The notes under the pieces are model-generated. The model saw only the letters and a list, made by a program, of their open reading frames with translations. It did not search any database and was not told where the DNA came from. 64,000 nt of DNA, from NCBI GenBank assembly GCA_030390025.1, contig JASTWF010000034.1, positions 3,906,001 through 3,970,000 of the forward strand, written 5' to 3'. Positions 13,845-47,982 of this stretch are shown piece by piece. A program made the position numbers and the translations under genes. The DNA is from Squalus acanthias (taxonomy: Eukaryota). Position 1 is the stretch's first letter, and each line of letters starts with the position of its first letter.

Positions 13845-14200
13845 AGTGACTGCCGCAATCCTTGTGCGGGGCGCCACAGCCGCCATCTTTGTGCGGGGCC
13901 CCAGAGCCGCCATCTTTGTGCGGGGCCCCGGAGCCGCCATCTTTGTGCAGGGCCCCAGAGCCACCATCTCTGTGCGGGGCCCCAGAGCCTCCATCTTTGT
14001 GCGGGGTCCCGGAGCCGCCATCTTTGTGCGGGGCCCCAGAGCCGCCATCTCTGTGCGGGGCCCCAGAGCCACCATCTGTGTGCGAGGCCCCAGCGCCGCC
14101 ATCTCTGTGCTGGGCCCCGGAGCCACCATCTCTGTGCGGGGCCCCAGAGCCACCATCTCTGTGCGGGGCTTCGGAGCCGCCATCTTTGTGCGGGGGCCCA
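13845..14200. repeat. 27-bp GC/CpG-rich minisatellite (GCCGCCATCTTTGTGCGGGGCCCCAGA), about 13 copies
   Basis: 9-aa periodic ORFs in several frames; direct periodicity. Confidence 0.93.
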
Positions 14201-14255
14201 CATTATCAGGCCCAGGGAACTGTCAACTCTCAGGCTGCAAAGTCTCCGCTTCTTC

Positions 14256-15157
14256 TCATCCTTTAATTAATTTTACAATCAGAGTAAAGGGATATTTCCC
14301 CACATTCTTCAACTGCTCTCTAAACTTAGTCTGGGTCACGGCATAAATCCCAGTGTTTGTGCAGCAACTCAGCAGCTGAAGCCCGAATCCCAGTTCCATT
14401 ACATAATACGGTAGAAATACAGACTGATACCCCAAATACCACATCCGGCTCCATATAGAATACACCATAAACACTGCCCATAACAAGATGAAATTGCCAG
14501 AGATAACGAGCAGTAAAATGATGGATTTCCTGCGGCTCTCCATCTCTGGGTCTCTGGGACTCGCCCCACTGCTGGGACCCCGGAGTCTCCTGCGGGCTCT
14601 GCTGGCCACTAAAATGTGTCTGACGGTGACAGCATTGAGCAGCAGAATCACCACAAATGGGACACACGGGGTGAGAATATAATGAAGGAGCTCGATTGTT
14701 GTCCAGACCCGTGAATTCTGAACATCCATTGTGACATCACAAAACCAGGGCTCGTTCACAAACCAATACCGACCTGTGAACATAAAATACCAGAAGATGT
14801 TCTTTAAACCGCTCAGCACAGTCACTGTTCCCAGAACCACAGCCGCCGTTTTCTCGGTGCAATATTTAGTTTTCAGCTTCTGGCAACAAATGGCCACAAA
14901 TCGATCAAAGGTGAAAGTGACGGTGAACCAGACAGAACAGTCTGTGGCTGCGAACAGCAGGACGGCGTGGATATTACACACGGGGATAGACTGCACGAAA
15001 TCCAACTGTTCATCATAAACAATCGGAATGTGCCTCAATATCAGGTCGAGGATAACGACCAGTAGATCCGCCGCTGCCATGGCCACCAGGTAGCGAGTGA
15101 CACATTTGGAGAGACCGCACTTTCCCCGAGACAGGATCACAATCGTCACTAAGTTCA
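14256..15157 (-). CDS. GPR139-like: Class A GPCR, GPR139/GPR142-like, exon 2 (end of TM1 to TM7 and stop)
   Basis: Open 300-codon frame: NLVTIVILS, YLVAMAAADLLV (TM2), TM3 Cys, FTFDRFVAIC (DRY equivalent), CCTNTGIY (NPxxY variant), KFRE helix 8. Acceptor TTTATTTCCCTTCCTCACAG|TG at 15158/15157, phase 1. A paralogue-type match, not necessarily the true GPR139 orthologue. Confidence 0.92.
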
Positions 15158-16470
15158 CTGTGAGGAAGGGAAATAAACAGGGAAATTATTCATCAGGCTG
15201 GGAGCAAAAGCAGCAGTTTGATGGAATTCGGGGTGAAATCTGCAACTCACGAGCGACATTGAATGATATAATCTAATCCCATTACCTGTGGAGCTGAATA
15301 CAGGGCTTATTGTAAGAATAATCGGGAATACATTGTGGAATCAGTAACTGAAATGGGAATAAATACAATATCAAAGTAACAGATGTTTGATCAAGGAGAG
15401 ATTAAATGATCGATCTACATTTAGCCCAGCAGACAAAAGCACCGCCCGAGGTACCAGGGACACAAAGGACCAAACCCTCTCAGGAAGCCTTCGTGTCCCG
15501 GGATCAGTTAGCATTTGGAGCGGTGCAGTTCGCTTCTGTGCCCGTGTTAGGGAGGGAGAAATCCCGCTTGGATTCCAGCTCCTGGTTAGAATATCCATTC
15601 TATTTAGAACTGGGAAATGAATGCAACAGCAAAATACAGAAACTGCAACCTTGGCATGCAATAATTACAGGCAATTGTATGTAAAATGTACGGATGTAAT
15701 ACGACAATGCTAAGATAATAAATACAAGTGCACTGCAGTTATAAAGATAACTGGGCTATCAGATATATTTTGGAGATTGAGTTTACTGCATTTTTGTTGA
15801 AATACACAAATTCTAGCTCATTGAAAGGAAGATTTGCCCAGTAACATTGCAAATAATGGATTCTGAATTAAAGTAAATAGTGATGATTGACCAGGTAATG
15901 TCCCACTAAATGCATTTATCAGCATCGAAATCAGGCAAATTATCCCACAGGCAAAGTGCCGCCGAATGCTGTTGTGAAGTATCTGAACACAAATGGAAGA
16001 GATTTATCCTTGAACTTTTCAACTGTTGTTTCCAACTTGTGCAGAAAATAATATTAGACGAGAAGATATCAAAGGATTTTCTTATCCTCAGTACTTCAGT
16101 TACAATCAGCTGGGATTGTTTATCCTGAAGTGCAGCAGGAGGCAATAGATAATCACTCTGGGTCCCACTGAGCGATCCACTGTACTGTGACAGACGGGCA
16201 TGGCATCCAATTGTAAATCCAAAACAATGCTCAGAAAGAAATGTATTGAAATCTGGCTGAATGCACGTTTTGAGAGCATGTAAATTATCCTTGTAATCCT
16301 ACTTTAACCATCAGAAGCAGTGCCAATAATGCAGAACTGGAGAGGGTGGGAAAGGAGACACTGACTGGAACTGAATGATTGGCGGATATTTGAGACATTT
16401 AAAGATGTGGATGTGATCTGACAGGATTTGTTCGTGTAACTCTGTAAGTAACCATACCAAGCATTAGGTG

Positions 16471-16606
16471 AAAAGAAACACAAAATACTGCGGATACTGG
16501 AAATCTGAAATGAAAACAGAAAATGTTGGAAATACTCAGCGGGTCAGGCAGCATCTGTGGAGAGAGAGAGAAACAGAGTTAACGTTTCAGGTCGATGGCC
16601 TTTCGC
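16471..16606 (-). mobile_element. Penelope-like terminal repeat fragment
   Basis: Same family as 2498-2660; ends within the hammerhead-like core (GAAAGGCCATCGACCTGAAACGTTAAC on minus). Confidence 0.6.
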
Positions 16607-17317
16607 CATTAGGTGAAAAGTCTCCTAAACCAAGACAGCATTCTTCTGACCTGATACTAATGTCCAGTGTAGGTAGCAGACTGAAATTCGTTCAATAAAG
16701 AGTCAACTCTAATAAATTTACTTGAGTTGAACATTTGAATCTTGGTAACACGAATTCACCTTCAGAATCAATAGCTGACAGCAGCGCGGATGGGATGGGG
16801 AACGACAGAGAGAGAAACACAGATAATCATGGGGGGGAAAATCGGTTGGTTAGCACCTCCCCTGTGCACATTCGGGGGGGAAGGGGGAACGGGGCGATAG
16901 GAGCTTAGCGCCCAAGCGCTGCTATTTTAGCGCCGCTCACGAAATTGACCAGTCATTTTGCGCTGGCACTAAACACTGCCGCCACGATCTCCTGCGCCTG
17001 CAGATCGTGACAGCAGTCGAGCGTGCAATGCCCTGGTAGCGCCCCGGACTGAAAATTGAGTCGCGTGCCCTGCCTTAGCCCCTGCCGCTAGGAACGACAC
17101 GTAGATGGGGAATGTTTTCAAGTCAGGAAGGGGCTGGGGGAGCGCTATTTAAAGGCGGTTGCCTCCTGCCGTTTCTTGTCGGCGAAATTTTTGTTACACA
17201 CAGGTTGAGAGACGTCGAGAGAGATTCGACGCTCACCGAAGGAGTTTTGGGTCCTGAGCACCAATTTGGAGGTTCATTTTTATTTCACCTTCCTTCTAAC
17301 GATATTAATAAGCTTCG

Positions 17318-17872
17318 ATGGGGGCTGCACTAACTTGGGGCGTCATCGTCCAGCTTCACCTTCGGAGGCAGCAGAGGCACAGAGAGAGAGTGAGTGGCAA
17401 ACGCGACCAGAGGTTGTGTGACCACAGACAGCTCATACTCGCCGTTAATGCCCGGTATCCTGGCAGCAGCCACAATGCTTTTATTCTGCGCCAGTCCGGT
17501 GTTGCACACATCTTCCAACCACCGTGTCAACCTAGTGGATGGCTCCTCGGAGACAAGGGTTATCCACTCTTCACCTGGCTGATGACACCGATCCATAACC
17601 CCAACACCCCTGCCGAACTGCAATACAATGAGAGCCATAGCGCCACCAGGAACATGATAGAGCAGGCGTTCGGCGTCGTGAAACAACGGTTCCGCTTTCT
17701 AGATCACTCAGGAGGAGCCCTGCAATACACTCCCGAGCGAGTCTCCCTCTTGATTGTTGTGTGCTGCATGCTTTATAACATTGCAATCATGAGGACCCAA
17801 CCATTGCCACCAGGGATTGGTGCACCACCTGAGGAGGAGGAGGAAGAGGGAGAGGAGAAGGAGGATGAGTAG
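17318..17872 (+). pseudogene. Harbinger (HARBI1-like, DDE_Tnp_4) transposase, internally deleted
   Basis: CDH..ILAVNARYPGSSHNAFIL, WLLGDKGYPL..WLMTP, YNESHSATRNMIEQAFGVVKQRFRFLD, CCMLYNIA; the N-terminal HTH and first catalytic Asp region are absent. Confidence 0.88.
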
Positions 17873-18217
17873 CAGGAGGGTGAAGAGGAGGATCAGCAGC
17901 ACCAACGTGGGAGGGAGGCGCACAATGTTGCCACTGAAAGGGCCGTCCGTGAACGGCTCATAAGACACCGATTCTAACCCCTTACTGAGAAGATGGCTTC
18001 TGTGATGAAGAAGCTCATCATTGAAAGCATCCCGCACCCCCTATTGCTGGACAAAGCTGCAACGAGTCAAATCAGAAAAGATGTAAAGTAACAATTAAAA
18101 AAATGAGTTGTTACCAACTCTGTGTCATTTATTCAGGACAAACAAATTGAAGCAAACACAACAATTCATGAATTAACAAAACTCGTTCTCACAACATGGA
18201 GATGAGCGGCAAAACTG

Positions 18218-20172
18218 TCAACACATAGTTGAATATCCATTACTGTGTGCAGCCATGTGTTTGGCAGAGGTGCCTACCATAGTTGAATATCCGTTATTGT
18301 GTGCAGACATGTGTTTGGCAGCGGTGCCTACCATAGTTGAATTGCCATTACTGTGTGCAGACATGTGTATGGCAGAGGTGCCTTTCATAGTTGAATAGCC
18401 ATTACTGTGTGCAGCCAAGTGTTTGGCAGAGGTGCCTTTCATAGTTGAATAGCCATTACTGTGTGCAGCCATGTGTTTGGCAGAGGTGCCTACCATAGTT
18501 GAATAGCCATGACTGTGTGCAGACATGTATTTGGCAGAGGTGCCTTTCATAGTTGAATAGCCATTACTGTGTGCAGCCATGCATTTGGCAGAGGTGCCTA
18601 CCATAGTTGAATAGCCATTACTTTGTGCAGACATGTGTTTGGCAGAGGTGCCGAACAGAGTTGAATATCCGTTATTGTTTGCAGCCATGTGTTTGGCAGA
18701 GGTGCCTACCATAGTTGAATAGCCATTACTGTGTGCAGCCAAGTGTTTGGCAGAGGTGCCTTTCATAGTTGAATAGCCATTACTGTGTGCAGCCTTGCGT
18801 TTGGCAGAGGTGCCTACCATAGTTGAATAGCCATTACTGTGTGCAGACATGTGTTTGTCAGAGGTGCCTAACATAGTTGAATATCCGTTATTGTGTGCAG
18901 CCACGTGTTTGGCAGAGGTGCCGACCATAGTTGAACAGCCATTACTGTGTGCAGACATGTGTTTGGCAGAGGTGCCTACCATAGTTGAATAGCCATTACT
19001 GTGTGCAGACATGTGTTTGGCAGAGGTGCCTACCATAGTTGAATAGCCATTACTGTGTGCAGCCATGTGTTTCGCAGAGGTGCCTTTCATAGTTGAATAG
19101 CCATTACTGTTTGCAGCTATGCGTTTGGTAGATATGCCTATCATAGTTGAATAGCCATTACTGTGTGCAGCCATGTGTTTGGCAGAGGTGCCTACCATAG
19201 TTGAATAGCCATTACTGTGTGCAGACATGTGTTTGGCAGAGGTGCCGAACAGAGTTGAATATCCGTTATTGTTTGCAGCCATGTGTTTGGCAGAGGTGCC
19301 TACCATAGTTGAATAGCCATTACTGTGTGCAGCCAAGTGTTTGGCAGAGGTGCCTTTCATAGTTGAATAGCCATTACTGTGTGCAGCCTTGCGTTTGGCA
19401 GAGGTGCCTACCATAGTTGAATAGCCATTACTGTGTGCAGACATGTGTTTGTCAGAGGTGCCTAACATAGTTGAATATCCGTTATTGTGTGCAGCCACGT
19501 GTTTGGCAGAGGTGCCGACCATAGTTGAACAGCCATTACTGTGTGCAGACATGTGTTTGGCAGAGGTGCCTACCATAGTTGAATAGCCATTACTGTGTGC
19601 AGACATGTGTTTGGCAGAGGTGCCTACCATAGTTGAATAGCCATTACTGTGTGCAGCCATGTGTTTCGCAGAGGTGCCTTTCATAGTTGAATAGCCATTA
19701 CTGTTTGCAGCTATGCGTTTGGTAGATATGCCTATCATAGTTGAATAGCCATTACTGTGTGCAGCCATGTGTTTGGCAGAGGTGCCTACCATAGTTGAAT
19801 AGCCATTACTGTGTGCAGACATGTTTTTGGCAGAGGTGCCTTTCATCGTCGAATAGCCATTACTGTGTGCAGCTATGCGTTTGGCAGATAGTTCTATTAT
19901 AGTTGAATAGCCATTACTGTGTGCAGCTGTGCGTTTGGCAGATATGCCTATCATAGTTGAATAGCCATTACTGTGTGCAGCCATGTATATGGCAGATGTG
20001 CCTATCATAGTTCAATAGCCATTACTGTGTGCAACCATGTGTTTTGCAGATGTACCTATCATAGTTGAATAGCCATTACTGTGTGCAGACATGTGTTTGG
20101 CAGATGTGCCTACCACAGCTGAATAGCCGTTATTGTGTGCAGCCATGTGTCTGGCAGATGTGCCTCCCATAG
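18218..20172. repeat. 54-bp tandem array (about 36 copies) with a 594-bp (11-mer) higher-order duplication
   Basis: 18-aa periodic ORF MVGTSAKHMAAHSNGYST; rare variants recur at +594 (CCGAACAGAG at 18651 and 19245). Confidence 0.95.
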
Positions 20173-20184
20173 TATATTTTTATT

Positions 20185-20520
20185 CATTTATGGGATGTGG
20201 GCTTCCGCTGGCATGGCTAGCATTTATTGCCCATCCCTAGTTGCCCTTGAGAAGGTGGTGGTGAGCTGCCTTCTTGAACCGTGTGGTGAAGGTACTCCCA
20301 CATTGCTGTTAAGTAGGGAGTTACAGGATTTTGACCCAGCGATGATGAAGGATCTGCGATATACTTCTAAGTCAGGATGGTGTGTGACTTGGAGGGGAAC
20401 TTGGAGGTGGTGGTGTTCCCATGCGACTGCCCTTGTCCTTCTAGGTGGAAGAGTTCGCGGGTTTGGGAGGTGCTGCCGAAGAAGCCTTGGTGAGTTGCTG
20501 TAGTGTATCTTGTTGAATAG
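20185..20520 (-). mobile_element. LINE 3' end (GGGCAATAAATGC-tail family)
   Basis: Homologous to 12950-13135 and to the SINE tail at 13455-13530. Confidence 0.7.
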
Positions 20521-20674
20521 CGGTTAATGTGTGCAAGGTGTGGGATGTGGATGTGTGTTTTATGAAATGGCCATAGGTTTGAATGAGTGTTGGGCATTTG
20601 GGTTTGTAAACCCTCTGGGCACAGAGTGAAGTTGAGATGGAGGGATGTAGAGGTTTGGAAAAGCAGGTACTCAC

Positions 20675-20898
20675 CCTGACCACCCGAGTGAGCTCGTTCA
20701 ACTTCATCTGACATTGGGTGTGGGTTCTCGGCACCAGGCCCCTCGGGGTGATGTGCTGAGTTACCTCCCTCCACACTCTTCTAAACTCCCGGGGCAATGG
20801 CCTCCTGCACCTCACAGGGAACAACGTTCCACAGCGCCAACCAGAGCCACCAAAGCCTCGTCGCTCAAGCCCCTAGCTCTTTCTCTGGGCCTCTCCAT
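20675..20898 (-). pseudogene. Harbinger accessory Myb/SANT-like DNA-binding gene, first exon, frameshifted
   Basis: MERPRERARGLSDEALVALVGAVER / LFP..RRPLPREFRRVWREVTQHI....VPRTHTQCQMKLNELTRVVR then donor AGG|GTGAGT; W...RT..QC..K.N.L pattern of trihelix Myb/SANT domains. Confidence 0.75.
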
Positions 20899-20932
20899 TT
20901 TTTTGAATTAATAACTGGACATAGATCCTTAC

Positions 20933-21022
20933 TAGAACGCCGACAGCAGTGAGGAGGGGATAGTACATATTTTGTACATCATAACATATTCCTAATATCC
21001 TAAACACTTCACCCCAATCCAT
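20933..21022 (-). pseudogene. Proximal paralogous GPCR first exon (MDWGEVFRILGICYDVQNMYYPLLTAVGVL), phase-0 donor
   Basis: YYPLLTAVGV matches distal exon 1 YYPLLAAVGV; 90 nt to |GTAAGG, so joining exon 2 gives CTA-TGA (stop). Confidence 0.65.
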
Positions 21023-21084
21023 GCCTTCCCTTCTGTGAGTGTCTGGTGGTCTTTGTGCTGGGGGCAGCGCGCTGACTGTGTGAG

Positions 21085-21205
21085 GTGACACAGTGAAGGG
21101 ATCCCTTATTTAGAGCAGAGGGAAATCCCCGCGTGACATCATTAGGCCTCACTGTAACTGGCATTAATTACAGTCATTGAACAAACAGACTCATTGAACC
21201 ATTGT
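21085..21205 (-). promoter_or_regulatory. Putative promoter of proximal GPCR exon 1
   Basis: CTAAATAAGGG TATA-like (minus strand), GGGAAATCCC, CATTAATTACAGTCA, AACAAACA, colinear with 30915-31020. Confidence 0.5.
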
Positions 21206-21219
21206 CACCACAACACTTT

Positions 21220-22155
21220 ACTCAACTACCTCCTCTTTCACTATGACTTTGGCAGCAGCTTCTTCCTTGCTAAAGACAGATGCAAAGTATTCATTTACTA
21301 TCTCAGCCATGCCCTCTGCCTCCATTCGTAGGTCTCCTTTTTGGCCCTTAATCGGCCCCACCCCTCCTCTTACTGCCCGTTTAATATTTATATGCCAAAA
21401 GAAGACTTTTGGATTCCATTTTATGTTAGCTGACAATCTATTCTAATACTCTCTCTTTGCCCCTCTTATTTCCTTTTTCACTTCCTCTTTGAACTTCCTA
21501 TATTCAGCCTGGTTCTCACTTGTATTCTGAACTTGATATCTGTCATACGCCCCATTTCTCTGCTTCCTCTTACTCTCCATCTTCCACTATCTCTTTCGTC
21601 ATCCAGGGAGCTCTGGCTTTGGTTGCCTACCTTTCCCCCTCGTGGGAAAGTACCTCGATTGTACCTGAATCATCTCTTCTTTAAGGCAGACCATTGTTCG
21701 ATTACAGTTTTGCCTGCCAATCTTTGATTCCTTTTACCCAAGCCAGCTCCGTTCTCAACCCACTGAAATTGGCCCTCCCCTAATTAAGTATTTTTACTCT
21801 AGATTGCTCCTCGTCCTTTTCCATAGCTAATATAAACCTCATGATACTACGATCACCGTTCTCTGAATGCTCCCTTACTGAAATCTTCTCCACTTCAGCT
21901 ACCTCATTCCCCAGAACCAGATCCAGCAATGCCTCCTTCCTCTTTGGGCCAGAAATGCCCCAATCAAGAAAGTTCTCTTGAACTCACTAAGGAAATTCTT
22001 TCCCCTCTCTTCCCTTTATACGATTACTATCTCAGTCTATATTAGGATAACTGAAGTCCCCCATTATTACCACTCTATATTTCTTCCACCTCTCTGCAAT
22101 TTCCCTGCAAATTTGCTCCTCTATTTCCTTCCCACTAGTTGGTGGCCTATAGAAG
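21220..22155 (-). mobile_element. CR1 LINE ORF2 fragment (endonuclease end to tether), decayed
   Basis: NIKWNPKVFF..GPIK..EYFASVF. Confidence 0.85.
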
Positions 22156-22169
22156 CGTTTTACAGCCAA

Positions 22170-22445
22170 TGATTCTGCCATTCCCATTGGGAACATTTAA
22201 CCTCTCCTGCCTTCCACCCTATCACAGACCATCTCTTTTGATCATTCCTCCCCCCGCCTTTCCCTGCCCCTACACCTGCTTATAATCTGTTACATCTCTA
22301 AATTTTTCCAGTTATGTCGAAGGGTCACAGACCTGAAATGCTAACTCTGTTTCTCTCTCCACGGATGCTGCCTGACCTGCTGAGTGTTTCCAGCATTTTC
22401 TGTTGTTATTTCAGATTTCCAGCATCCGCAGTATTTTGCTATTGT
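22170..22445 (+). mobile_element. Penelope-like terminal repeat fragment (longest copy)
   Basis: Homologous to 2498-2660; degenerate hammerhead core at ~22314-22342. Confidence 0.6.
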
Positions 22446-22461
22446 AAGGTCTAAGATAAAA

Positions 22462-22896
22462 GAGAAAGAAAGACTTTCACGACCACCGGACGTCTCGAAG
22501 CGTTTTACAGCCAATGAATACTTTTGGAGTGTCGTCACTGTTGTCAGGTGAGAAACGCGGCAGCCAATTTGCGCACAGCAAGCTCCCACAAACAGCAATG
22601 TGATAATGACCAGATTAATAGTTTTTGTTATGTTGATTGAGCGATAATTATTGGCCAGGACACCAGGGATAACTTCACTACTCTTCATCGAACTGGTGCA
22701 ACGCGATCTTTTACGTCCACCTGAGAGAGCAGTTTAACATCTCATCCGAAAGACGTCACCTCCAACAGTGCAGCACTCCCTCAGTACTGCACGGGAGTGT
22801 CAGCCTAGATTTATGGGCTCAAGTCCCTGGAGCTTGGAACCCACAACCTCTGACTGAGAGGCGAGTGTGCTACCTACTGAGCCACAGCTGACACTG
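22462..22896 (-). mobile_element. DeuSINE (SacSINE1-like tRNA SINE with Deu domain and L2-type tail)
   Basis: A box TGGCTCAGTAGG, B-box-like GGGTTCCAAG, central GGATGAGATGTTAAAC..GTGGACGTAAAAGATC..GGTGTCCTGGCCAA, tail TGTAAAACGCTTCGAGACGTCC..GTGAAAG; family name recalled, not searched. Confidence 0.75.
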
Positions 22897-23213
22897 TCAG
22901 ATGGGTTTACAGTGCATGTGTGCAAACGCACGAAGCGTGGTCAATAAGTAGGTGAGCTGCAGGAGCAAATAGCCACATAGGAAAATGATGTTGTGGCGAT
23001 AACAGAGACCTGGCTCAAAAAGGGCAAGATTGGGTACTAAATATACCTGGATATAAGATGTTCGGGAAATATAGGGAAGGAAAGAAAGGAGGTGGATTAG
23101 CAATATTGATTAAGGAGAATATTAGTGCTGGAGAAAGAGGATGTCTTCGAGGGGTCAAGGGCAGAATCTATTTGGTTAGAGTTAAGAAAAAATAGAGGTA
23201 CCATTACACTGCT
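22897..23213 (+). mobile_element. CR1 endonuclease N-terminal fragment
   Basis: NARSVVNK..DVVAITETWL..GGGLAILIKE..ESIWLEL. Confidence 0.8.
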
Positions 23214-24215
23214 CCCGCATCAATCCAGAAATTTCATTCCCAGGCACAGCCTAGATTACACTGCTCCCACCTCAATCCAGGAATGTGATTCCCAGGGCTG
23301 CCTAGATTACACTGCTCCAGCCTCAGTAAAGAAATTTCATTCCCAGGACAGCCCAGATTACACTGATCCCACCTCAATCCAGGAATTTCATTCCCAGGAC
23401 AGCCTAGATTACACTGCTCCCACCTCAGTCCAGGAATTTCATTCCCAGGGCTGCCTAGATTAATTACACTGATCCCACCTCAATCCAGGAATTTCATTCC
23501 CAGGACAGCCTAGATTACACTGCTCCCGCCTCAATCCAGGAATTTCATTCCCAGGACAGCCTAGATTACACTGCTCCCACCTCATTCCAGGAATTTAATT
23601 CCCAGGACTGCCTAGATTACACTGCTCACAGCTCAAACCAGGAATTTCATTCCCAGGACAGCCTGGATTACACTGCTCCCACCTCTGTCCAGGAATTTCA
23701 TCCCCGGGACAGACTAGATTACACTGCTCCCGCCTCAGTCCAGGAATTTCATTCCCAGGACAGGCTAGATTACACTGCTCCCACCTCAATCCAGGAATTT
23801 CATTCCCAGGACAGGCTAGATTACACTGCTCCCACCTCAGTCCAGGAATTTCATTCCCAGGGCTGCCTAGATTACACTGCTCCCGCCTCAGTCCAGGAAT
23901 TTCATTCCCAGGACAGACTAGATTACACTGCTCCCGCCTCAGTCCAGGAATTTCATTCCCGGGACAGACTAGATTACACTGCTCCCACCTCAGTCCAGGA
24001 ATTTCATTCCCAGGACAGCCTAGATTACACTGCTCCCGCCTCAGTCCAGGAATTTCATTCCCAGGACAGACTAGATTACACTGCTCCCGCCTCAGTCCAG
24101 GAATTTCATTCCCGGGACAGACTAGATTACACTGCTCCCGCCTCAGTCCAGGAATTTCATTCCCAGGACAGCCTAGATTACACTGCTCCTGCCTCAATCC
24201 AGGAATGTCATTCTC
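23204..24215. repeat. 51-bp tandem array (CCAGGAATTTCATTCCCAGGACAGCCTAGATTACACTGCTCCCRCCTCART), about 20 copies
   Basis: 17-aa periodic ORF; direct periodicity. Confidence 0.95.
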
Positions 24216-24529
24216 AGTTCATTTCTCTTTTGCCTGAAAATGGAAGAAGAAGAAGAAGAAGAAGAGTGAACTTACCCTGACAAACATGTCATCGTGTTTG
24301 ACAGAGGGGAAGAATAATTAGAAGCAGCAAAGGATTAAAACGAAGGGATCAAAGGAAAAACACTTAAAATATTAACCAATGAGATAAATACGCTGTAAGC
24401 ACCTCAATACTCCAGGAAACTCTCTGGAAACATTAAATTATCGCATAATCATACTCACAGAACCATAACTGTCAGTCAACATTCTCAAACCCTCCATCAC
24501 CATTCCAGGGTCTGCACAGACCCACCAGA

Positions 24530-24910
24530 GGTGGGGACACAGGGGTATACAATCGGGAGGGAGAAACCCTGCGAGTCCACAACATTGCCTGAGGATATAA
24601 TGAAGTCTGATGGCTTCCAGTCAGACATGGGCAAGGTAACTTCCTGCCGATCACCACCTACCGCCCTCCCTCAGCTGATGAATCGACACATCTTCATGTT
24701 GAACACCAGTTGATGGAGCACTGGGAGCAGAAAGGGCACAAATTATACGCTGGGTCGGGAGGGGGAAACTTCAATGTTCATAACCAAGAGTGGCTCGGAA
24801 GTACCATCATTAACCGAGCCCTGAAGAACACAGACTGGGATTGCGGCAGGTGGTGGGAGACCCAAGATGAGAGAATAGACTGCTTGACCACGTCCTCACC
24901 AACCTACCTA
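24530..24910 (+). mobile_element. LINE endonuclease fragment (CR1/L2 group, second family)
   Basis: TTYRPPSADES..HVEH, GNFNVHNQEWLGS across frameshifts. Confidence 0.6.
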
Positions 24911-25570
24911 TCTGACAGTGCAGTGCTCCCTCAGTACTGCCCCTCTGAGAGTGATGCGCTCCCTCAGTACTGCCCCTCTGACAGTGATGTGCTCCCTCAG
25001 TACTGCCCCTCTGACAGTGCAGTGCTCCCTCAGTACTGCCCCTCTGACAGTGCAGTGCTCCCTCAATACTGCCCCTCTGACAGTGCAGTGCTCCCTCAGT
25101 ACTGTCCCTCCGACAGTGCAGTGCTCCCTCAGTACTGCCCCTCCGACAGTGCAGTGATCCCTCAGTACTGCCCCTCCGACAGTGCAGTGCTCCCTCAGTA
25201 GTGCCCCTCTGACAGTGCAGTGCTCCCTCAGTACTGCCCCTCCGACAGTGCAGTGCTCCCTCAGTACTGCCCCTCCGACAGTGCAGTGATCCCTCAGTAC
25301 TGCCCCTCTGACAGTGCAGTGCTCCCTCAGTACTGCCCCTCTGACAGTGCACTGCTCCCTCAGTACTGCCCCACTAACAGTGCAGCGCTCCCTCAGTACT
25401 GCCCCTCTGACAGTGCAGCGCTCCCTCAGTACTGCCCCACCGACAGTGCAGCGCTCCCTCAGTACTGCCCCTCTGACAGTGATGCGCTCCCTCAGTACTG
25501 CCCCTCTGACAGAGATGCACTCCCTCAGTACTGCCCCTCCAACAATGCAGCACTCCCTCAGTACTGTCTT
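24911..25570. repeat. 33-bp SINE-derived minisatellite (CTGACAGTGCAGTGCTCCCTCAGTACTGCCCCT), about 20 copies
   Basis: Unit matches DeuSINE 22759-22790 (CCTCCAACAGTGCAGCACTCCCTCAGTACTGC). Confidence 0.93.
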
Positions 25571-25604
25571 GAGTGCAGTTTGTCATGGAGTGCAGCTTGG
25601 AACC

Positions 25605-28600
25605 GAGTGTTAAGCTGCGAGTTTGGTGAGTGAGGGAGTTCATGGAGGGATGTGTTCCTTTCTTTTTCTGTCTTTGTCAGCTTCCAAGACCCGGTCAGTA
25701 TTTCTACAGTCCAGTCGTTAAAGTAAAAGTAAGGTCTCGAGTTTAGAGCAAGTAGTGTTTAAAGGGAAGTCAGGTCCCTAGTGTATTTAATATTCTTTAA
25801 TTTAAAGGGAGTAAATTATGGGTAGGACATGGCAGGGCAGCTCGGCAGCGTGGAGTGCTCCTCCTGTGCTATGTTGGAAGACAGGGACACTTTAGGTGTC
25901 CAGGGCGAACACATGTGCAGCAAGTGACCCCAGCTGCAGCTACTCGAAAACCGCGTTTCGGAGCTGGAGCTGCGACTGGAGTCACTGTGGAGCATCCGCG
26001 AAGCTGAGATCTTCGTGGATAGAACATTTAACGAGGTGGTCACACCGCAGGTAAAGAGTGCACAGGCAAATAGGAAATAGATGACCGCCAGACAGTGTAA
26101 AAGTACTAGGAAGGCAGTGCAGGAGTCCCCAAGGTCCATCTCCCTCTCCAACAGATTTTCCATTTTGGATACTGATGGGGGAGATGGTTTCTCAGGGGAA
26201 TGCAGCAAGAGCCAAGTCCATGGCACTACGAGTGGCTCAGCACCACAGGAGGCGTGGGGGGGAAAGAGTGGGAGAGCAATAGTGACAGGGGATTATATCG
26301 TAAGGGGAACAGATAGAAGTTTCTGTGGCCGCAGACGTGACTCCAGGATGGTATGTTGCCTCCCTGGTGCCAGGTTCAAGGATGTCACTGAACGGCTGCA
26401 GGGTATTCTGAAGGGTGAGGGTGAACTGTCAGAGGTCGTAATCCACATTGGTACCAACGACATGGGTAAAAAGAGGGATGAGGTCCTGCAACAAGAATTT
26501 AGGGAGCTAGGTAGCAGATTAAAAAGCAGGAGCTCAAAGGTTGTAATCTCTGTTTTACTCCCGGTGCCACGTGCTAGTGAGTATAGGAATAGGAGAATAG
26601 AGCAGATGAATGGGTGGCTAAAGAGTTGGTGCAGGAGGGAGGGCTTTCGTTTCCTGGATCACTGGGTCTGCTTCTGGGGAAGGTGGGACCTGTACAATTT
26701 GGACGGGTTGCACCTGAACCGGAACGGGACCAACATCCTTGCGGGGAGGTTTGCTGGTGCTGTTGGCGGGGGGGGGGGGGGGGTGGGGGGCGGGTGCGGT
26801 TTAAACTAACTTGGCAGAGGGATGGGATACGGAGTGGAGCTATAGTAGGGGGTGATGCACAGCCAAATATAGAGGAAAAAACAAGTCAGCCTGGAAGGCA
26901 GAGCAAATATGTAACGGCACAAGAATGTAAGGCAAGCCTGGTGGGCATTTATTTTAATGCAAGGAGTCTTGCGAGTAAGACAGATGAATTGAAGTTGTTG
27001 ATGAACACATGGGAGTATGATATTGTTGCTATCACAGATACATGGTTGAGGGAGGGGCAGGACAGGCAGCTCAATATTCCGGGGTATAGAATCTTCAGGC
27101 GAGACAGAGGGGTGTGTAAAAGAGGAGGGGGTGTCTCAATATTAATCAAGGAGTCAATTACTGCAGTAAAGAGGGAAGATATCTTAGCAGGTTCCTCTAA
27201 GGAGGCCATATGGGTAGAACTTAAAACCAAAAAGTGGGCAAGCACTTTGCTGGGATTGTACTACAGGGCCCCAAACAGTCAGGGGAGATAGAAGAACAGA
27301 TATGTAGGCAAATTTCAGAGAAGTGTCTAAATAATAGGGTAATAATAGTAGGGGATTTCAACTTCCCCAATATTAACTGGGATAGTCAGAGTTTGAAAGG
27401 CTTAGAGGGTGCAGAATTCTTAAAGTGCATCCAGGAGAGCTTTTTGAGCTAACATATAGAAAGTGCTACAAGAGAGGGGGCAGTTCTGGACCTAATTCTA
27501 GGGAATGCAGCCATGCAAGTGGTAGAAGTGTTAGTAGGAGAGCATTTTGGTGACAGTGACCATAATTCGGTGAGATTTAAGCTACTCATTGAAAAGGACA
27601 AAGATGGACCGGAATAATGGTTCTAAATTGGGGGAAGGCCAATTTTAATATGATAAGGCAGGATCTGGCCAAAGTGGACTATGATCAGCTACTTGTAGGA
27701 AAATCCACATCAGAGCAGTGGTACTCTTTCAGAAAGGAAATAGAGAGAGTACAACACCAACATGTTCCCGTAAAAGTTAAGGTTGGGACCAACAAGCCCA
27801 GGGAACGCTGGATGTCAAGGGATATACAAGAATGGATTGGGAAAGAAAGAGAGGCTTTAGGCAGATACAAAGGACTAGAAACAGTGGAAGCCCTAGAGGA
27901 GTATAGAAAGTGCAGGGGGGTAGTTAAAAAAGAAATTAGGAGAGCGAAGAGGGGGCATGAAAAAAAACACTGGCGGGCAAAGAAAAGGAAAATCCCAAGG
28001 TGTTTTATAAGTATATTAAGGGCAAGAGGATAACCAGGGAAAGAGTAGGGCCCATTAGGGACCAAAGTGGTAATCTGTGTGTAGAGCCGGAAGATGTAGG
28101 TGAGGTTTTAAATGAATATTTTGCATCTGTGTTCACTATGGAGATGCACGATATAGGCATAGAAATCAGGCAAGGCGATTGTGGTATACTTGAATAAATT
28201 AGTATTGAGAGGGAGGAGGTATTGCGGTTTTAGCGGGCATAAAAGTGGATAAATCCCCAGGCCCAGACGAGATGTATCCCAGGCTGCAGTGTGAGGCAAG
28301 GGAGGAGACTGCAGGGGCTCTGACATAAATTTTCAGAACCTCTCTGACCACAGGGCAGGTGCCAGATGACTGGAGAACACCTAACATAGTACCATTGTTC
28401 AAGAAGGTTAGTAGGGATAAACCAGGGAATTACAGGCCATTGAGCCTAACATCAGTGGTAGGGAAATTCTTGGAAAAAATTCAGAGGGACAGAGTTAGTC
28501 TACACTTGAAGAGGCAAGGATTGATCAAGGATAGTCAGCATGGCTTTGGAAGGGGGAGATCAGTTCTAAGCAATTTGATTGAAGTGACTAGGTTTCTGGA

Positions 28601-28985
28601 TGAGGGTAGTGCAGTTGATGTAGTCTACATGAACTTCAGTAAGGCTTTTGACAACGTCCCACATGGGAGAATGGTCAAGAAGGTAAAAGGCCATGGAATC
28701 CAGGGCAATTTGGCACATTGGATCTAAAATTGGTTTAGTGGCAGGAGGCAGAGTGTGATGGTCGAAGGTTGTTTTTGTGACTTGATGCCTGGGTCCAGTG
28801 GTGTACCGCAGGGATCAGTGCTGGGACCTTTGCTGTTTGTAGTGTACATTAATGATTCAGATATGAATGTAGGAGGTATGATCAGCAAGTTCGCAGATGA
28901 GACGAAAATTGGTGGTGTGGTAAATAGCGAGGATGAAAGCCTCAGGCTACAGGACGATGTAGACGGTTTGGTTAGATGGGCAGAA
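25605..28985 (+). mobile_element. CR1 LINE with 5' UTR, ORF1 (zinc finger/zipper + SGNH esterase) and ORF2 (EN + RT), decayed and cut at its 3' side
   Basis: ORF1: C..C..C..* L.LLE.RV.ELE, SLSNRFSIL, GDYIVR, CLPGA, HIGTND, DGLHLN. ORF2: [51 protein letters not shown]; multiple stops and frameshifts. Confidence 0.95.
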
Positions 28986-29882
28986 CATAGAAACATAGAA
29001 GAAAGGAGCAGGAGTAGTCCATTCGGCCCCTCGAGACTGCTCCGATATTCAATGCGATCATGGCTGATCATCCAAATTCAGTACCCTGTCCCTGCTTTCT
29101 CCACATATCCCTTGATCCCCTCAGCCTTAATAAATATATCTAACTCCTTCTTGAATACATTTAATAAATTGGCCTCAACTGCCTTTTGTGGTAGAGAATT
29201 TCACAGTTTCACCACTCTCTGGGTGAAGAAATTCCTCCTCATCTCAGTCCTAAATGGCTTACCAATTATCCTTAGACTGTGACCCCTGGTTCTGGAGTCT
29301 CCCGCCATCGGGAACAGCCATTCTACATATAGTCTGTCTATTGCTGTTAGAATGTTATAAGTTTCAAAGAGATCCCCTCTCATTCTTCTAAACTCTAGCG
29401 AATATAAGCCTAATCAAAACAATCTCTCTTCATACGTCATTCCTACCATCCCAAGTATCAGTTTGGTGAATCTTCGCTGCACTCCCTTCATGGTAAGAAC
29501 ATCCTTCCTCAGATAAGGCGATCAAAACTGCACACAATACTCAAGGTGTGTTCTCAGCAAGGCCCTGTACAACTGCAGCAAGCCATCCTTGCTCATGTAC
29601 TCGAATCCTCTCGCTATGAAGGCCAACTTAGCATTTGCCTTCTTAACCGCCTGCTGCACCTGCATGCTTACCTTCTGCGACTGGTGCACAAGGACACCCA
29701 GATCACGTTGCACTTCCCCTTTTCCCAATCTATTGCCGTTCAGATAATAACCTACCTTCCTGTTTTTGCCACCAAAGTGGAAAACCTCGCATTTATCCAC
29801 ATTATATTGCATCTGCCATGCATCTGACCAATCACCCAACCTGTGCAAATCATACTGGAGTTTCTCTGCATCCTCCTCACAG
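28986..29882 (-). mobile_element. 5'-truncated CR1 LINE, antisense
   Basis: WQMQYNVDKCEV..RDLGVLVH..HLEYCVQF..RRNFFTQRVV; same subfamily as 60376-61747. Confidence 0.92.
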
Positions 29883-29984
29883 TACAGAGGGAAAGAAATT
29901 AACTTTAAAAGGGGAATTGGATAAATACCTGAATGGGAACAATTTGCAGGACTATGGGAAAAGAGCAAGGGAATGGGAATAATT

Positions 29985-30485
29985 TGAGGGGTGAGGCCAT
30001 GGTGGGATTTGAACATGAGAGAAGAATATTTAAATCGAGTTGTTGCCGGATCGGCAGCCAATGTTGGTCAGTGATCACAGGGGTGATGGGTGAATGGGAC
30101 ATGATGTGTGTTAGGATACGGGCAGCAGAGTTTTGGATGAGATCTAGTTTATGGAGGCTTGTTACTGGGAGGCCGATCAGGGGAGCATTGTAATAGTCGA
30201 GTCTGGATTTAACAAAGGCATGGATGAGGGTTTATGCAGCGGAAGGGTTGAGGTGGAGCGGAGATGGGTGAAATTTTGGGGGTGGTATTCGGCAGGACTG
30301 GTGATTGAGAAGATATATGTGTTTGGAACTCAGCTCAGGGACAAAGAGATCGCAGAGGTTGCAAACAGCCTGGTTCAGCCTCAGACATTGACCAGGGAGG
30401 GGGACTGAATCGGTAGATAGAGAATGGAGTTTGTGACGAGGACCGAAGACAATGGCTTCGCTCTTCCCAAGATTTAAATGACAAA
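29985..30485 (-). mobile_element. L2-type LINE RT C-terminal fragment
   Basis: SHSPITPV..D.HWLPIRQ.L.FK....FKS.HGL.P, typical of the L2 C-terminus. Confidence 0.7.
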
Positions 30486-30624
30486 CAGTAATTCAGTGAA
30501 ACGTGGTTTACAGACCCAATTTCCGGATATAGAGACTTACTGGGACACCAACAGCAGCAAAGAATGAAGAATAGTAATAGTTAGCAAAGGTTTGCAGATT
30601 TAATAGCTGGATAGAGAGACTTAC

Positions 30625-30805
30625 CAGGCACACCAACAGCAGCTAGGAGCGGATAGTAAATGTATTGAATAATCAGAAGTGCCAAATAGATCCGATCGTC
30701 TAATGGCAGCCAATCATAATTTTCTGAAAGATCGTCAAACTCCCAGCTGAAACTCCTGCCCATTGTTGCAGCATTCCAATCTACTGTTCTCAGATTCCGA
30801 CCCAT
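30625..30805 (-). CDS. GPR139-like: GPR139-like GPCR exon 1 (N-terminus + first half of TM1), distal
   Basis: MGRNLRTVDWNAATMGRSFSWEFDDLSENYDWLPLDDRIYLALLIIQYIYYPLLAAVGVP + G|GTAAGT; 181 nt = phase 1, joining exon 2 in frame (..GVP-V-NL..) to give 360 aa. Start codon choice is inferred. Confidence 0.8.
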
Positions 30806-30914
30806 TGTTGTAACATTCCAATCTACTGTTCTCAGATTCCGACTCCCTCTCTGTGGAGCAGCGCGCTGATCCCTGTCAGTGCCGGAGGCGATGCTCTCAC
30901 TGACACTACGTGAT

Positions 30915-31085
30915 AACACATTGAAAGGAGTCCCATATTAATAGAAGAGGGAAACCCTGCACTGATACAATTAGAATCCATGGAGACTGACATTAATTAC
31001 AGTCACTAAACAAACATCTTCAGTTAACCCGTGGAGACTGACATTAATTACAGTCACTGAACAAACAGCTTCAGTTAAGCCCTTT
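30915..31085 (-). promoter_or_regulatory. Putative promoter of distal GPCR exon 1
   Basis: TATA-like CTATTAATAT (minus strand, ~30937-30946), GGGGAAACCC, and a 51-bp tandem duplication of GACTG-ACATTAATTA-CAGTC..AACAAACA; homologous to 21085-21200. Confidence 0.55.
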
Positions 31086-31129
31086 CAATCCAACACTTTT
31101 TGTACCACAGTAAAGTAGAACATTTACCC

Positions 31130-31715
31130 GGTCCGGATGGGAAGTATGAGGATTGCTGAGGAAAGAAATGGTGGAAATAGCGCAGGCTCTGGCCAGAATA
31201 TTTCAATCCTCCTCGGATATGGGAGTGGTGCCAGAGGACAGGAGGTTTGCAAATTTTACACCCTGTTTAAAAAAGGAGAGAGGGATAAACCCTGTAACTG
31301 CAGGCCAGTCAGTCTAACGTCAGTGTTGGGAAAACTCTAGAGGCCATATTCACTGAGAAAAGTATCTGTCTTTGGAAAAAACATGCATTAATAAATGACA
31401 ACCAGCTTGGATATGTTAATGGCAAAGTGTGCCTGACAAACTTGATTAAATTCTGTGATGAAGTAACGGAAATGGTTGATGAGGGTAGTGCGGTTGAAGT
31501 TGAGTATATGGACTTTAAAAATGCATTTGATGAAGTACAATTGAATAGACTTGATAGGACCAAAGGGACAGTGGCAGTGGGGATCTGACATTGGCTCAGG
31601 GACAGAAAACCGAGAGTGGTGGTGAACGGTTGTTGTTCAGACTGCAGGGAAGTATACAGTGGTATCCCCAGATGTCGCTATTCGGACCACTGCTCTTTTT
31701 GATATATATTAATGG
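31130..31715 (+). mobile_element. CR1 RT fragment (probably continues at ~33595-34430)
   Basis: FKKGERDKP.N.RPVSLTS; CLTNL; MDFKNAFD; degenerate SG.PQ.S..GPLLFLIYIN. Confidence 0.8.
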
Positions 31716-32515
31716 TGGAAAGGATTTGGGGAGTCAGGAGGTGACACACTCGCCGCAGAATACCCAGCCTCTGACCTGCTCTGTTAGCCACAGTATTTAT
31801 GTGGCTGGTCCAGTTAAGGTTCTGGTCAATGGAACCCCCCAGGATACTGATGGTGACGGATTTGGCGATGGTAATCCCATTGAAAGTCAAGGGGATGTGG
31901 CTCTTGTTGGAGATTGTCATTGCCTGGCACTTGTTTGGTGTGATTATTACTTGCCACTTATCAACCCAAGGCTGAATGTCATCCAGGTCTTGCTGCATGC
32001 GGGCATGGACTGCTTCATTATCTGAGGAGTTGTGAATAGAACTGAATACTGAGCAATCATCAGCGAACATCCCCACTTCTGACCATAGGATGGAGGGAAG
32101 GTCATTGATGAAATAGCTGAAGATGGTTTGGCCGAGCACACTGCCCTGATGTACTGCTGCAGCGATGTCCTGGGGCTGTGATGATTGACCTCCAAAAACA
32201 ACAACCATCTTCCGTTGTGCCGGGTATGACTCGAGAAAGTGGAGAGTTTTCCCCCTGCTTTCCATTGCCACAATTTTACTGGGGCTCCTTGATGCCGCAC
32301 TCAGTCCAATGCTGCCTTGATGTCATGGGCAATCACTCTCTCCTGACCTCTGGAATTCAGCTCCTTTGTCCTTGTTTGGACCAAGGCTGTAATGAGGTCT
32401 GGAGACGAGTGGTCCTGGCAGAAATCAAACTGGGCATCGGTGAGAAGGTTATTAGTGAGTAAGTGCCACTTAATAGCACTGTTGAAGAAACCTTTCATCA
32501 CTTTGCTCATTTCAC
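31716..32515 (-). mobile_element. LINE RT fragment (second CR1/L2-group family)
   Basis: DIKAALD; VHQGSVLGQTIFSYFINDLP; GMFADD; WVDKWQV. Confidence 0.85.
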
Positions 32516-32569: not shown

Positions 32570-33512
32570 TTCGGGCTGGAGGGAGGTAAAGAGTGGAGTT
32601 CCCCAGGGTTCAGTACTGGGGGCTGGAGGGAGGTATACAGTGGAGTTCCCCAGGTTCAGTACTGGGGTCTGGAGGGAGGTATACAGTGGAGTTCCCCAGG
32701 GATCAGTACTGGGGTCTGGAGGGAGGTATATAGTGGAGTTCCCCAGGGTTCAGTACTGGGGTCTGGAGGGAGGTATACAGTGGAGTTCCCCAGGGTTCAG
32801 TACTGGGGTCTGGAGGGAGGTATACAGTGGAGTTCCCCAGGGTTCAGTACTGGGGTCTGGAGGGAGGTATACAGTGGAGTTCTCCAGGGTTCAGTACTGG
32901 GGTATGGAGGAGGTATACAGTGGAGTTCCCCAGGGTTCAGTACTGGGGTCTGGAGGGAGGTATACAGTGGAGTTCTCCAGGGTTCAGTACTGGGGTATGG
33001 AAGGAGGTATACAGTGGAGTTCCCCAGGGTTCAGTACTGGTGTCTGGAGGGAGGTATACAGTGGAGTTCCCCAGGGTTCAGTACTGGTGTCTGGAGGGAG
33101 GTATACAGTGGAGTTCCCCAGGGTTCAGTACTGGGGTCTGGAGGGAGGTATACAGTGGAGTTCCCGAGGGTTCAGTACTGGGGTCTGGAGGGAGGTATTT
33201 CGTGGAGTTCCCCAGGTTTCAGTACTGTGGTCTGGAGGGAGGTATACAGTGGAGTTCCCCAGGGTTCAGTACTGGGGTCTGGAGGGAGGTATACAGTGGA
33301 GTTCCCCAGGGTTCAGTACTGTGGTCTGGAGGGAGGTATACAGTGGAGTTCCCGAGGGTTCAGTACTGGGGTCTGGAAGGAGATATACAGTGGAGTTCCC
33401 CAGGGTTCAGTACTGGGGTCTGGAGGGAGGTATACAGTGGAGTTCCCCAGGGTTCAGTACTGGGGTCTGGAGGGATGTATACCGTGGAGTTCCCCAGGGT
33501 CCAGTACTGGGG
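32570..33512 (+). repeat. 47-bp tandem array derived from CR1 RT motif B ([15 protein letters not shown]), about 20 copies
   Basis: Unit TGGAGGGAGGTATACAGTGGAGTTCCCCAGGGTTCAGTACTGGGGTC; translation cycles through three frames. Confidence 0.95.
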
Positions 33513-47500: not shown

Positions 47501-47982
47501 ACAGAGTAAAGCTGCCTCTACACTGTCCCATCAAACAACCCCAGGGTAGGGACAGCACCGGTTCGATACAGAATAAAGCTCCCTCTACACTGTTCCATCA
47601 AACACTCCCATGGCAGGTTCAGACCACGTTTGATACAGAGTAAAGATCCCTCTACACTGTCCCATCAAACACCGCCTGGGCAGGTTCAGAACAGGTTAGA
47701 TAGAGTAAATCTCCCTCTGAACTGTCCCAGCAAACCACTCCCAGGGCAGGTTCAGACCACGTTTGATAGAGTAAAGCTCTCTCTACACTGTCCCATTAAA
47801 CCCATCCAGGACATGCAGAACATGAGTAAGACAGATTAAAACTCCCTCGACACTATCCCCATCAAACTCTCCCAGAGCAGGTACAACATGTGTTAGATAC
47901 AGACTAAAGCTGCCTCTACAGTGTCCCATCAAACCCTTCCAAGACAGGCACAACACGAGTTAGACACAAAGTAAAGTTACAT
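44510..47982 (+). repeat. 67-bp satellite array, interrupted by an antisense CR1
   Basis: Direct periodicity at 44510-45317 and 45950-47982. Confidence 0.93.
45318..45949 (-). mobile_element. 5'-truncated CR1 LINE
   Basis: MLAFIARGFEYRSK..RPHLVYCV; RTRGHSLRIRG. Confidence 0.9.

What the first reader, a model, noticed from the sequence alone, without database searches (positions are those of the whole stretch)
14256..31085. One GPCR body exon, several paralogous promoter + N-terminus cassettes upstream
Seen: a single 7TM exon (14256-15157) is preceded on the same strand by two homologous promoter/first-exon units (21022-20933 and 30805-30625). They share the TM1 half (YYPLLxAVGV) but have unrelated extracellular N-termini (30 vs 60 aa), and no second 7TM exon lies between them. 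Known: protocadherin and UGT1 loci use variable first exons on constant exons. Inference: this could be a variable-N-terminus receptor system in an expanded GPR139-like family, or the remnant of a tandem gene array that lost one body exon and now splices a neighbour's exon 1, making a chimeric receptor.
Basis: partly seen in the sequence, partly recalled or inferred. Interest (0 to 1): 0.78.

Follow-up and report, generated by a model that had tools for sequence, protein, structure and literature searches.

The report
Dead spare first exon, shark receptor
A shark receptor gene from a very large gene family has two look-alike start pieces in front of one main exon, but only the far one can make a protein; the near one is a broken leftover of gene shuffling, not a working switch between two receptor versions.

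Summary
The layout is real: one intact 7TM exon (14256-15157, minus strand) has two homologous promoter + first-exon units upstream, and the 64 kb holds no other body exon.

Only the distal unit B (30805-30625, 181 nt, phase 1) splices in frame, giving 360 aa. The proximal unit A (21022-20933, 90 nt) is one base short at its donor, so the join stops at once; phase 1 is family-wide. A is a ~320-bp island between a broken CR1 LINE and a broken Harbinger transposon.

The two N-termini are not unrelated. They are the family's short and long exon-1 classes.

Among shark relatives, 165 of 165 near-identical body pairs keep matching first exons. Across species, though, exon-1 class does not follow the body tree (AU p=0.016), so first exons and bodies seem to be re-paired over evolutionary time.

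Verdict: an ordinary two-exon member of a huge shark GPR139-like family with a dead orphan first exon, not a protocadherin/UGT1-type system. I obtained no RNA splice evidence. The scan had already noted the family on other DNA.

The parts
14256..15157 (-). Exon 2: intact 7TM body (second half of TM1 to the stop), with a phase-1 acceptor
   Evidence: 2646 homologues
15158..16450 (-). 3' part of the intron, shared by many family copies
   Evidence: contigs at >=92% likeness cover every bin of it in DNA run X2 (5233 contigs laid on 14201-16450); 15158-16480 has no dispersed copy in the window
16830..20898 (.). Decayed Harbinger-type transposon: DDE_Tnp_4 remnant 17312-17872 (+) and a frameshifted Myb/SANT-like ORF starting at 20898 (-), with a 54-bp satellite at 18224-20173 between them. 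Both ends are approximate
   Evidence: (Myb match weak, E 0.0035, below cut-off); that both ORFs belong to one element is inference
20933..21022 (-). Unit A: short-class first exon, 90 nt, phase 0 at its donor, out of frame with exon 2 (pseudo-exon). Only about 34 nt of its own intron survive
21023..21219 (-). Promoter-like block of A: TAATTA, a GGGRNWYYCC match (kappaB-like, label recalled) and a TATA-like stretch
   Evidence: activity not tested; both motifs are common in the window (34 and 22 strand hits)
21257..22151 (-). CR1-type LINE fragment that breaks off mid-ORF2 (residue 415 of 949) about 40 nt before A's promoter block
30505..30582 (-). Unit C: partial tandem copy of an exon-1 end and donor, 85 nt behind B, also one base short at the donor; no promoter or start codon
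30625..30805 (-). Unit B: long-class first exon, 181 nt, phase 1, consensus donor; in frame with exon 2 (360 aa, 15,467-nt intron)
30806..31099 (-). Promoter-like block of B, with a 51-bp duplication of the TAATTA block, and the 5' UTR
   Evidence: activity not tested

Best explanation
The locus is one ordinary two-exon gene, B + body exon, of a very large shark-specific class A GPCR family that databases label 'probable GPR139'. Transcription most likely starts at B, and the 15.5-kb intron is spliced out to give a 360-aa receptor (frame and splice sites shown; transcription inferred). Unit A is the promoter and first exon of a short-class paralogue, stranded inside that intron by deletion or unequal crossover in a transposon-rich tandem array (inferred from its broken flanks). 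A has lost one base at its donor, so splicing it to the body gives a 30-residue product (shown from the sequence). The same kind of recombination in the long intron probably re-pairs first exons and bodies over evolutionary time (inferred from trees).
For: B + exon 2 is open for 360 aa; A + exon 2 stops after 30 aa. A has no in-frame donor that keeps its TM1 half and no rescuing internal exon; the only rescue is a purine-rich acceptor at 15119 that removes the rest of TM1. Phase 1 is family-wide: 36 of 37 models with a spurious first exon keep a V/F/I/L junction residue, so only the first base varies. A was once coding: over the 10 codons from YYP to the junction it differs from B at 5 synonymous and 2 non-synonymous codons. 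A is bounded by a CR1 broken mid-ORF2 and a Myb-like ORF starting 34 nt after the donor. Among 145 of 209 proteins with a real first exon, 165 of 165 pairs with >=95% body identity have a first-exon core >=77% identical (median 100%); A versus B is 50%. None of 99 listed cluster members shows an isoform name (names are cut short). A 60-aa exon 1, as in B, is the commonest long-class length.
Against: No transcript shows B spliced to exon 2. The missing base in A was not checked against reads, so an assembly error or a polymorphism is possible. A's promoter block is still well conserved. The relatives are automatic gene models, which would pick one first exon per locus even if two were there, so cannot exclude a hidden two-cassette layout. 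A and C lack the same base, which I cannot explain. B's N-terminus has no N-glycosylation sequon, unlike most long-class relatives.
Confidence: 0.8

Rival explanations
1. Working variable-first-exon system: A and B are alternative promoters giving a short or long N-terminus on one 7TM body, and the frameshift is an assembly error or a null allele.
For: The geometry and the conserved promoter motif resemble UGT1/Pcdh clusters (PMC1885805 passages). Such clusters do contain frameshifted variable exons, and one exon there (a stop-codon case) has both functional and null alleles. Both exon classes occur on closely related bodies.
Against: A is out of frame. A nearby CR1 ORF2 reads 949 codons with no frameshift and one internal stop, which argues against frequent indel errors here. 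Here the 'constant' exon is the part that is multiplied across the family. No pair of near-identical bodies has different first exons (0 of 165).
Confidence: 0.1
2. On origin: the body exon was A's original partner (or a third gene's); B lost its own body and now splices onto it, so the working gene is a chimera.
For: The order B, A, body is what deleting B's body from a head-to-tail array would leave. Exon-1 class is not clustered on the body tree (9 changes against a shuffled mean of about 10; long-class bodies rejected as one clade, p-AU 0.016). Two candidate chimeric pairs exist among relatives (P0019/P0057 and P0023/P0049).
Against: The body's nearest tree neighbours are long-class Pristiophorus genes (4-row clade, support 94/90, not starred), and 71 of 87 classified close relatives are long-class. 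A's own intron ends after about 34 nt, so A is not joined to the body by continuous native sequence.
Confidence: 0.35
3. A is a live internal promoter kept as an attenuator: it makes unproductive or TM1-truncated transcripts that damp the receptor.
For: The promoter block is intact, with TAATTA and GGGRNWYYCC matches. A cryptic acceptor at 15119 would give a 317-aa ORF.
Against: That acceptor is weak and the product lacks the second half of TM1. No conservation of the arrangement was shown. Recent decay explains an intact promoter just as well.
Confidence: 0.06
4. Misassembly: a collapsed tandem array dropped one or more body exons.
For: The family is highly repetitive. The best DNA holders carry only 0.60-0.63 of the exon-2 words, so no run confirms this exact locus.
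Against: The window has no N gaps. The edges of A fall inside old, diverged transposon copies, not in near-identical repeats.
Confidence: 0.06

Closest known systems
Shark 'probable G-protein coupled receptor 139' automatic models (Heptranchias perlo, Heterodontus francisci, Pristiophorus japonicus; e.g. P0004, P0009)
   Same: 73-83% identity for 119 of the top 120; same junction position and phase; same long and short exon-1 classes
   Different: This locus carries an extra, frameshifted first exon and its promoter inside the intron; genomic context of the relatives could not be read
Human GPR139 (PDB 7VUG, 9M42; review PMC7318219)
   Same: Best match among solved structures; also a two-exon gene
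   Different: Only E 2.9e-9, 39.8 bits, whereas true orthologues are 70% identical from human to zebrafish; so a distant sister family, with ligand unknown
Variable-first-exon clusters UGT1, GCNT2 and clustered protocadherins (PMC1885805)
   Same: Tandem paralogous promoter + first-exon units upstream of a shared exon; frameshifted pseudogene exons also occur in those clusters
   Different: There, many variable exons share one reading frame and each gives functional mRNA on single-copy constant exons. Here only one unit is in frame and the body is the multi-copy part
Birth-and-death chemoreceptor arrays with orphan exons and chimeric paralogues (general knowledge, recalled)
   Same: Large lineage-specific expansion with pseudogene fragments; bodies cluster by species
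   Different: A TM1-splitting intron lets the N-terminus + half TM1 be exchanged as a module

Membership tests
Variable-first-exon cluster (UGT1/GCNT2/Pcdh type) | Two or more paralogous first exons in tandem upstream of a shared downstream exon | tested here: met
Variable-first-exon cluster (UGT1/GCNT2/Pcdh type) | Each first exon has its own promoter with a conserved motif | tested here: met
   homologous ~190-bp blocks, score 112 against a shuffle maximum of 33; sequence only, activity untested
Variable-first-exon cluster (UGT1/GCNT2/Pcdh type) | At least two first exons share the reading frame of the constant exon | tested here: not met
   A is phase 0, the acceptor phase 1
Variable-first-exon cluster (UGT1/GCNT2/Pcdh type) | Variable exons are multiplied while the constant exon is shared | tested here: not met
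   bodies are multi-copy; 0 of 165 near-identical body pairs carry different first exons (automatic models)
Variable-first-exon cluster (UGT1/GCNT2/Pcdh type) | Transcripts join each first exon to the constant exon | tested here: inconclusive
   no usable spliced data were obtained
Variable-first-exon cluster (UGT1/GCNT2/Pcdh type) | Arrangement conserved in related species | not testable with these tools
   no genome is held for this window; the homologue searches give no genomic context
Shark GPR139-like class A GPCR family | Rhodopsin-class 7TM domain with high identity to family members | tested here: met
Shark GPR139-like class A GPCR family | Two coding exons with a phase-1 intron in TM1 | tested here: met
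   met for B + body
GPR139 orthologues | About 70% or more identity to human GPR139 | tested here: not met
   E 2.9e-9, 39.8 bits against the 70-96% benchmark
GPR139 orthologues | Activation by the known GPR139 ligands | not testable with these tools
   needs a receptor assay

The most novel reading that the evidence does not exclude
The TM1-splitting intron makes the first exon (promoter + N-terminus + half of TM1) an exchangeable module across this very large shark receptor family. Loci like this one pass through a stage with two live cassettes on one body. Unit A is in frame in other alleles or sister species, giving a GPCR with promoter-chosen short or long N-termini, UGT1-style.
Probability: 0.12. 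Interest if true: 0.7.

Novelty: new member of a known kind. Interest (0 to 1): 0.27.

Why it matters
At this locus the finding is ordinary: a dead first exon in a fast-turnover gene family. The side result is more useful. First-exon classes are shared across shark species while the bodies cluster by species, which suggests N-terminal modules and 7TM bodies are recombined in the germline. If whole genomes confirm it, this would be a route to receptor diversity in a large family that my paper searches did not find described.

Tried and rejected
Whole-genome count of exon 1 versus exon 2: no genome is held for this window.

RNA evidence. One search listed 22 runs and no RNA holder on record. I laid three guessed-RNA runs (X9, X10, X16) and one DNA run (X2) on 14201-16450; all are contigs. 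Two guessed-RNA contigs cross the acceptor unspliced. None of the 23 listed loose ends lies at 15157 (161 not shown). The three joints lie inside exon 2 in the DNA run. This says nothing on expression or splicing. The laid stretch did not include A or B, so A's missing base is unchecked, and the contigs differ from the window at many positions.

Frame rescue of A by other donors, other ATGs, internal exons or other acceptors (heuristic splice scores): none keeps TM1 whole.

Search for proteins with an A-like N-terminus: 4 candidates, none at E <= 10 (weak evidence). The same search with B gave 5 of 34.

Target-site duplication around A: only one shared 7-mer, inside the flanking transposon sequences; not counted.

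Rfam on 14000-32000: no match.

26-bp satellite upstream of A or B: absent. The only such array is at 1-946.

Papers on the shark expansion: none found (listings only). I did not read supplementary gene-family tables of shark genome papers, which may list the expansion.

Earlier-findings look-ups with no result.
Full report
Setting. The window is repeat-rich DNA with CR1-type LINEs and satellites. Its one receptor body exon has shark proteins as nearest relatives: 2646 hits among 4293 candidates. All 120 listed hits are named probable or putative GPR139 from Heptranchias, Heterodontus, Pristiophorus, Carcharodon, Mustelus and Stegostoma, and none is identical. No whole genome is held.

Observation. 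Exon 2 (14256-15157, minus) is an intact 7tm_1 exon. Two first-exon units lie upstream on the same strand, A (21022-20933) and B (30805-30625). Their promoter blocks are homologous far beyond chance (score 112; best of 1000 shuffles 33). An exon-1 protein profile built from 86 relatives and a DNA profile of the promoter find only these two units in 64 kb. A third, partial copy of an exon end (C, about 30582-30505) sits 85 nt behind B. tblastn with 209 homologues and low-stringency blastn found no other body exon or remnant. So the layout is real, with two cassettes rather than several.

The frame problem. B is 181 nt, ends in a consensus donor in phase 1, and joins exon 2 into 360 open codons. 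A is 90 nt, ends in phase 0, and the join reads a stop straight after residue 30. Aligned to B, A lacks one base at the donor; C lacks the same base. I listed every donor in A's reading frame, upstream ATGs, candidate internal exons and acceptors within -120 to +60 of the true acceptor. The only open product uses a purine-rich acceptor at 15119 and lacks the second half of TM1 (heuristic scores). Phase 1 is the family rule. In 36 of 37 models where the annotator attached a spurious first exon, the junction residue is V, F, I or L, so only its first base changes. In 154 models with a real first exon it is V, M or A. A was coding in the past (5 synonymous against 2 non-synonymous codon differences from B over the last 10 codons), so the lesion came later. 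I could not check the base against reads.

The N-termini. Of 120 relatives, 70 have a B-like long exon 1, 20 a short or other one, and 30 lack the TM1 half, being mis-modelled or partial. In front of the YYP motif, A fits the profile of 13 short-class exons (0 of 5000 shuffles as high) but not that of 72 long-class exons (1041 of 5000). B fits the long class strongly (0 of 5000) and the short class weakly (2 of 5000). Among 50%-cluster representatives, the 11 long-class rows I counted all lie at 61% body identity or more, and more distant members mostly have short first exons (counted by eye from the rows printed before the script crashed). So A and B are the family's two standard exon-1 classes, not unrelated sequences.

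Surroundings of A. Upstream, a CR1 on the same strand breaks off at ORF2 residue 415 of 949, about 40 nt before the promoter block. Downstream, similarity to B's intron ends after about 27 nt, and a frameshifted Myb/SANT-like ORF starts at 20898 (Pfam match weak). A DDE_Tnp_4 remnant lies at 17312-17872. I read these as one Harbinger-type element that has lost its end next to A (inference). A is thus a ~320-bp island with a breakpoint on each side and no clear target-site duplication. The last 1.3 kb of the intron is family sequence, covered throughout by contigs of a DNA run at 92% likeness or more.

Pairing in relatives. I kept 145 of 209 proteins with a real first exon and a full body. All 165 pairs with at least 95% body identity have first-exon cores at least 77% identical (median 100%); A versus B is 50%. 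Among 114 long-class proteins, 8 of 279 pairs with at least 90% body identity have first exons under 60% alike, and 7 of these involve one model with an internal deletion. One of 175 pairs with similar first exons has a dissimilar body. None of 99 listed members of 10 clusters shows an isoform name (names are cut short). Caveat: these are automatic models, which would choose one first exon per locus.

Deeper history. I built a 51-row tree of bodies: 35 long-class, 11 short-class, the window and 4 outgroups, picked by me from the 120 after dropping near-copies and unclassified rows. Classes were set and slightly edited after the tree. Class needs 9 changes (shuffled mean about 10; 0 of 200 bootstraps give one), while species needs 4. 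Holding long-class bodies plus the window's together is rejected at p-AU 0.016. The nearest other-species neighbour has the same class in 23 of 29 cases by exon 1 but 9 of 29 by exon 2; the latter figure is affected by a few short-branch hub sequences. Against this, the larger 121-row tree, which keeps near-copies, does show clustering (9 changes against a shuffled 15), and both trees have many unresolved nodes. The window's body sits with long-class Pristiophorus genes (94/90, not starred). My reading is that close paralogues stay 1:1 while first exons and bodies are occasionally re-paired by recombination or conversion.

Expression. No usable evidence was obtained (see Tried and rejected).

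Mechanism. Shown: frames, splice sites, classes and broken flanks. Inferred: B is the working promoter; A is a stranded, frameshifted relic of a short-class paralogue (0.8). Unresolved: whether the body was first B's partner or A's.

Comparison with known systems. UGT1, GCNT2 and Pcdh clusters have tandem variable exons, each with its own promoter and in the same reading frame, spliced to common constant exons; they also hold frameshifted pseudogene exons (PMC1885805; 12 passages read). This locus meets the geometry and promoter features but fails the shared-frame and shared-constant-exon features. Human GPR139 is the best solved-structure match but only at E 2.9e-9. It has two exons, and its orthologues are 70-96% identical (PMC7318219; two passages read), so the database name is a nearest-hit label. 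PMC6504862 (two passages and section 47 read) names extra GPR139/142-related subtypes, GPR210A and GPR210B, in bony fishes and coelacanth and does not mention sharks; I did not test a link. Eight searches found no paper on the shark expansion (listings only). Supplements were not read.

Earlier scan notes. One note from this genome describes repeated satellite + promoter + two-exon cassettes, and one from a ray describes the family as about a thousand genes. Both are unchecked leads. In this window neither A nor B has a 26-bp array upstream, and I could not tell whether the array at 1-946 is the same satellite.

Verdict. A real but ordinary arrangement: a new member of a known kind. Interest 0.27.

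Noticed in passing
homologue set P0001-P0120: Long and short first-exon classes are shared across shark species while the 7TM bodies cluster by species, suggesting germline exchange of N-terminal modules among paralogues.
   Followed up: partly
window 30505-30582 and 20933-20940 (-): The partial copy C behind B and unit A both lack the same base at the donor; parallel loss or shared history is unexplained.
   Followed up: partly
window 30759-30843 (-): A 42-bp unit encodes the 14-residue N-terminal repeat of long-class receptors; copy number varies widely among relatives (P0360 has about eight). B's translated copy has no N-glycosylation sequon.
   Followed up: partly
   Followed up: partly
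window 15158-16450: The last 1.3 kb of the intron is conserved at 92% or more in many family copies. It includes a 62-nt stretch at about 15347-15286 with acceptor- and donor-like ends, which would not restore A's frame.
   Followed up: partly
window 21023-21219 and 30905-31099 (-): Both promoter blocks have a transposon starting at nearly the same point upstream. A holds a GGGRNWYYCC match and both hold TAATTA, which could hint at immune or sensory-neuron control (labels recalled, untested).
   Followed up: no
window 47964-50810 (+): A near-intact CR1-type ORF2 of 949 codons with one internal stop and no frameshift.
   Followed up: no
window 32576-33512 (+): A 47-bp satellite (20 copies) sits inside a CR1 reverse-transcriptase match and appears to be built from a piece of it.
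   Followed up: no
P0001, P0002, P0071: Some relatives' models carry partial duplicated bodies or two fused bodies, another sign of rearrangement within arrays or of annotation joining neighbours.
   Followed up: no
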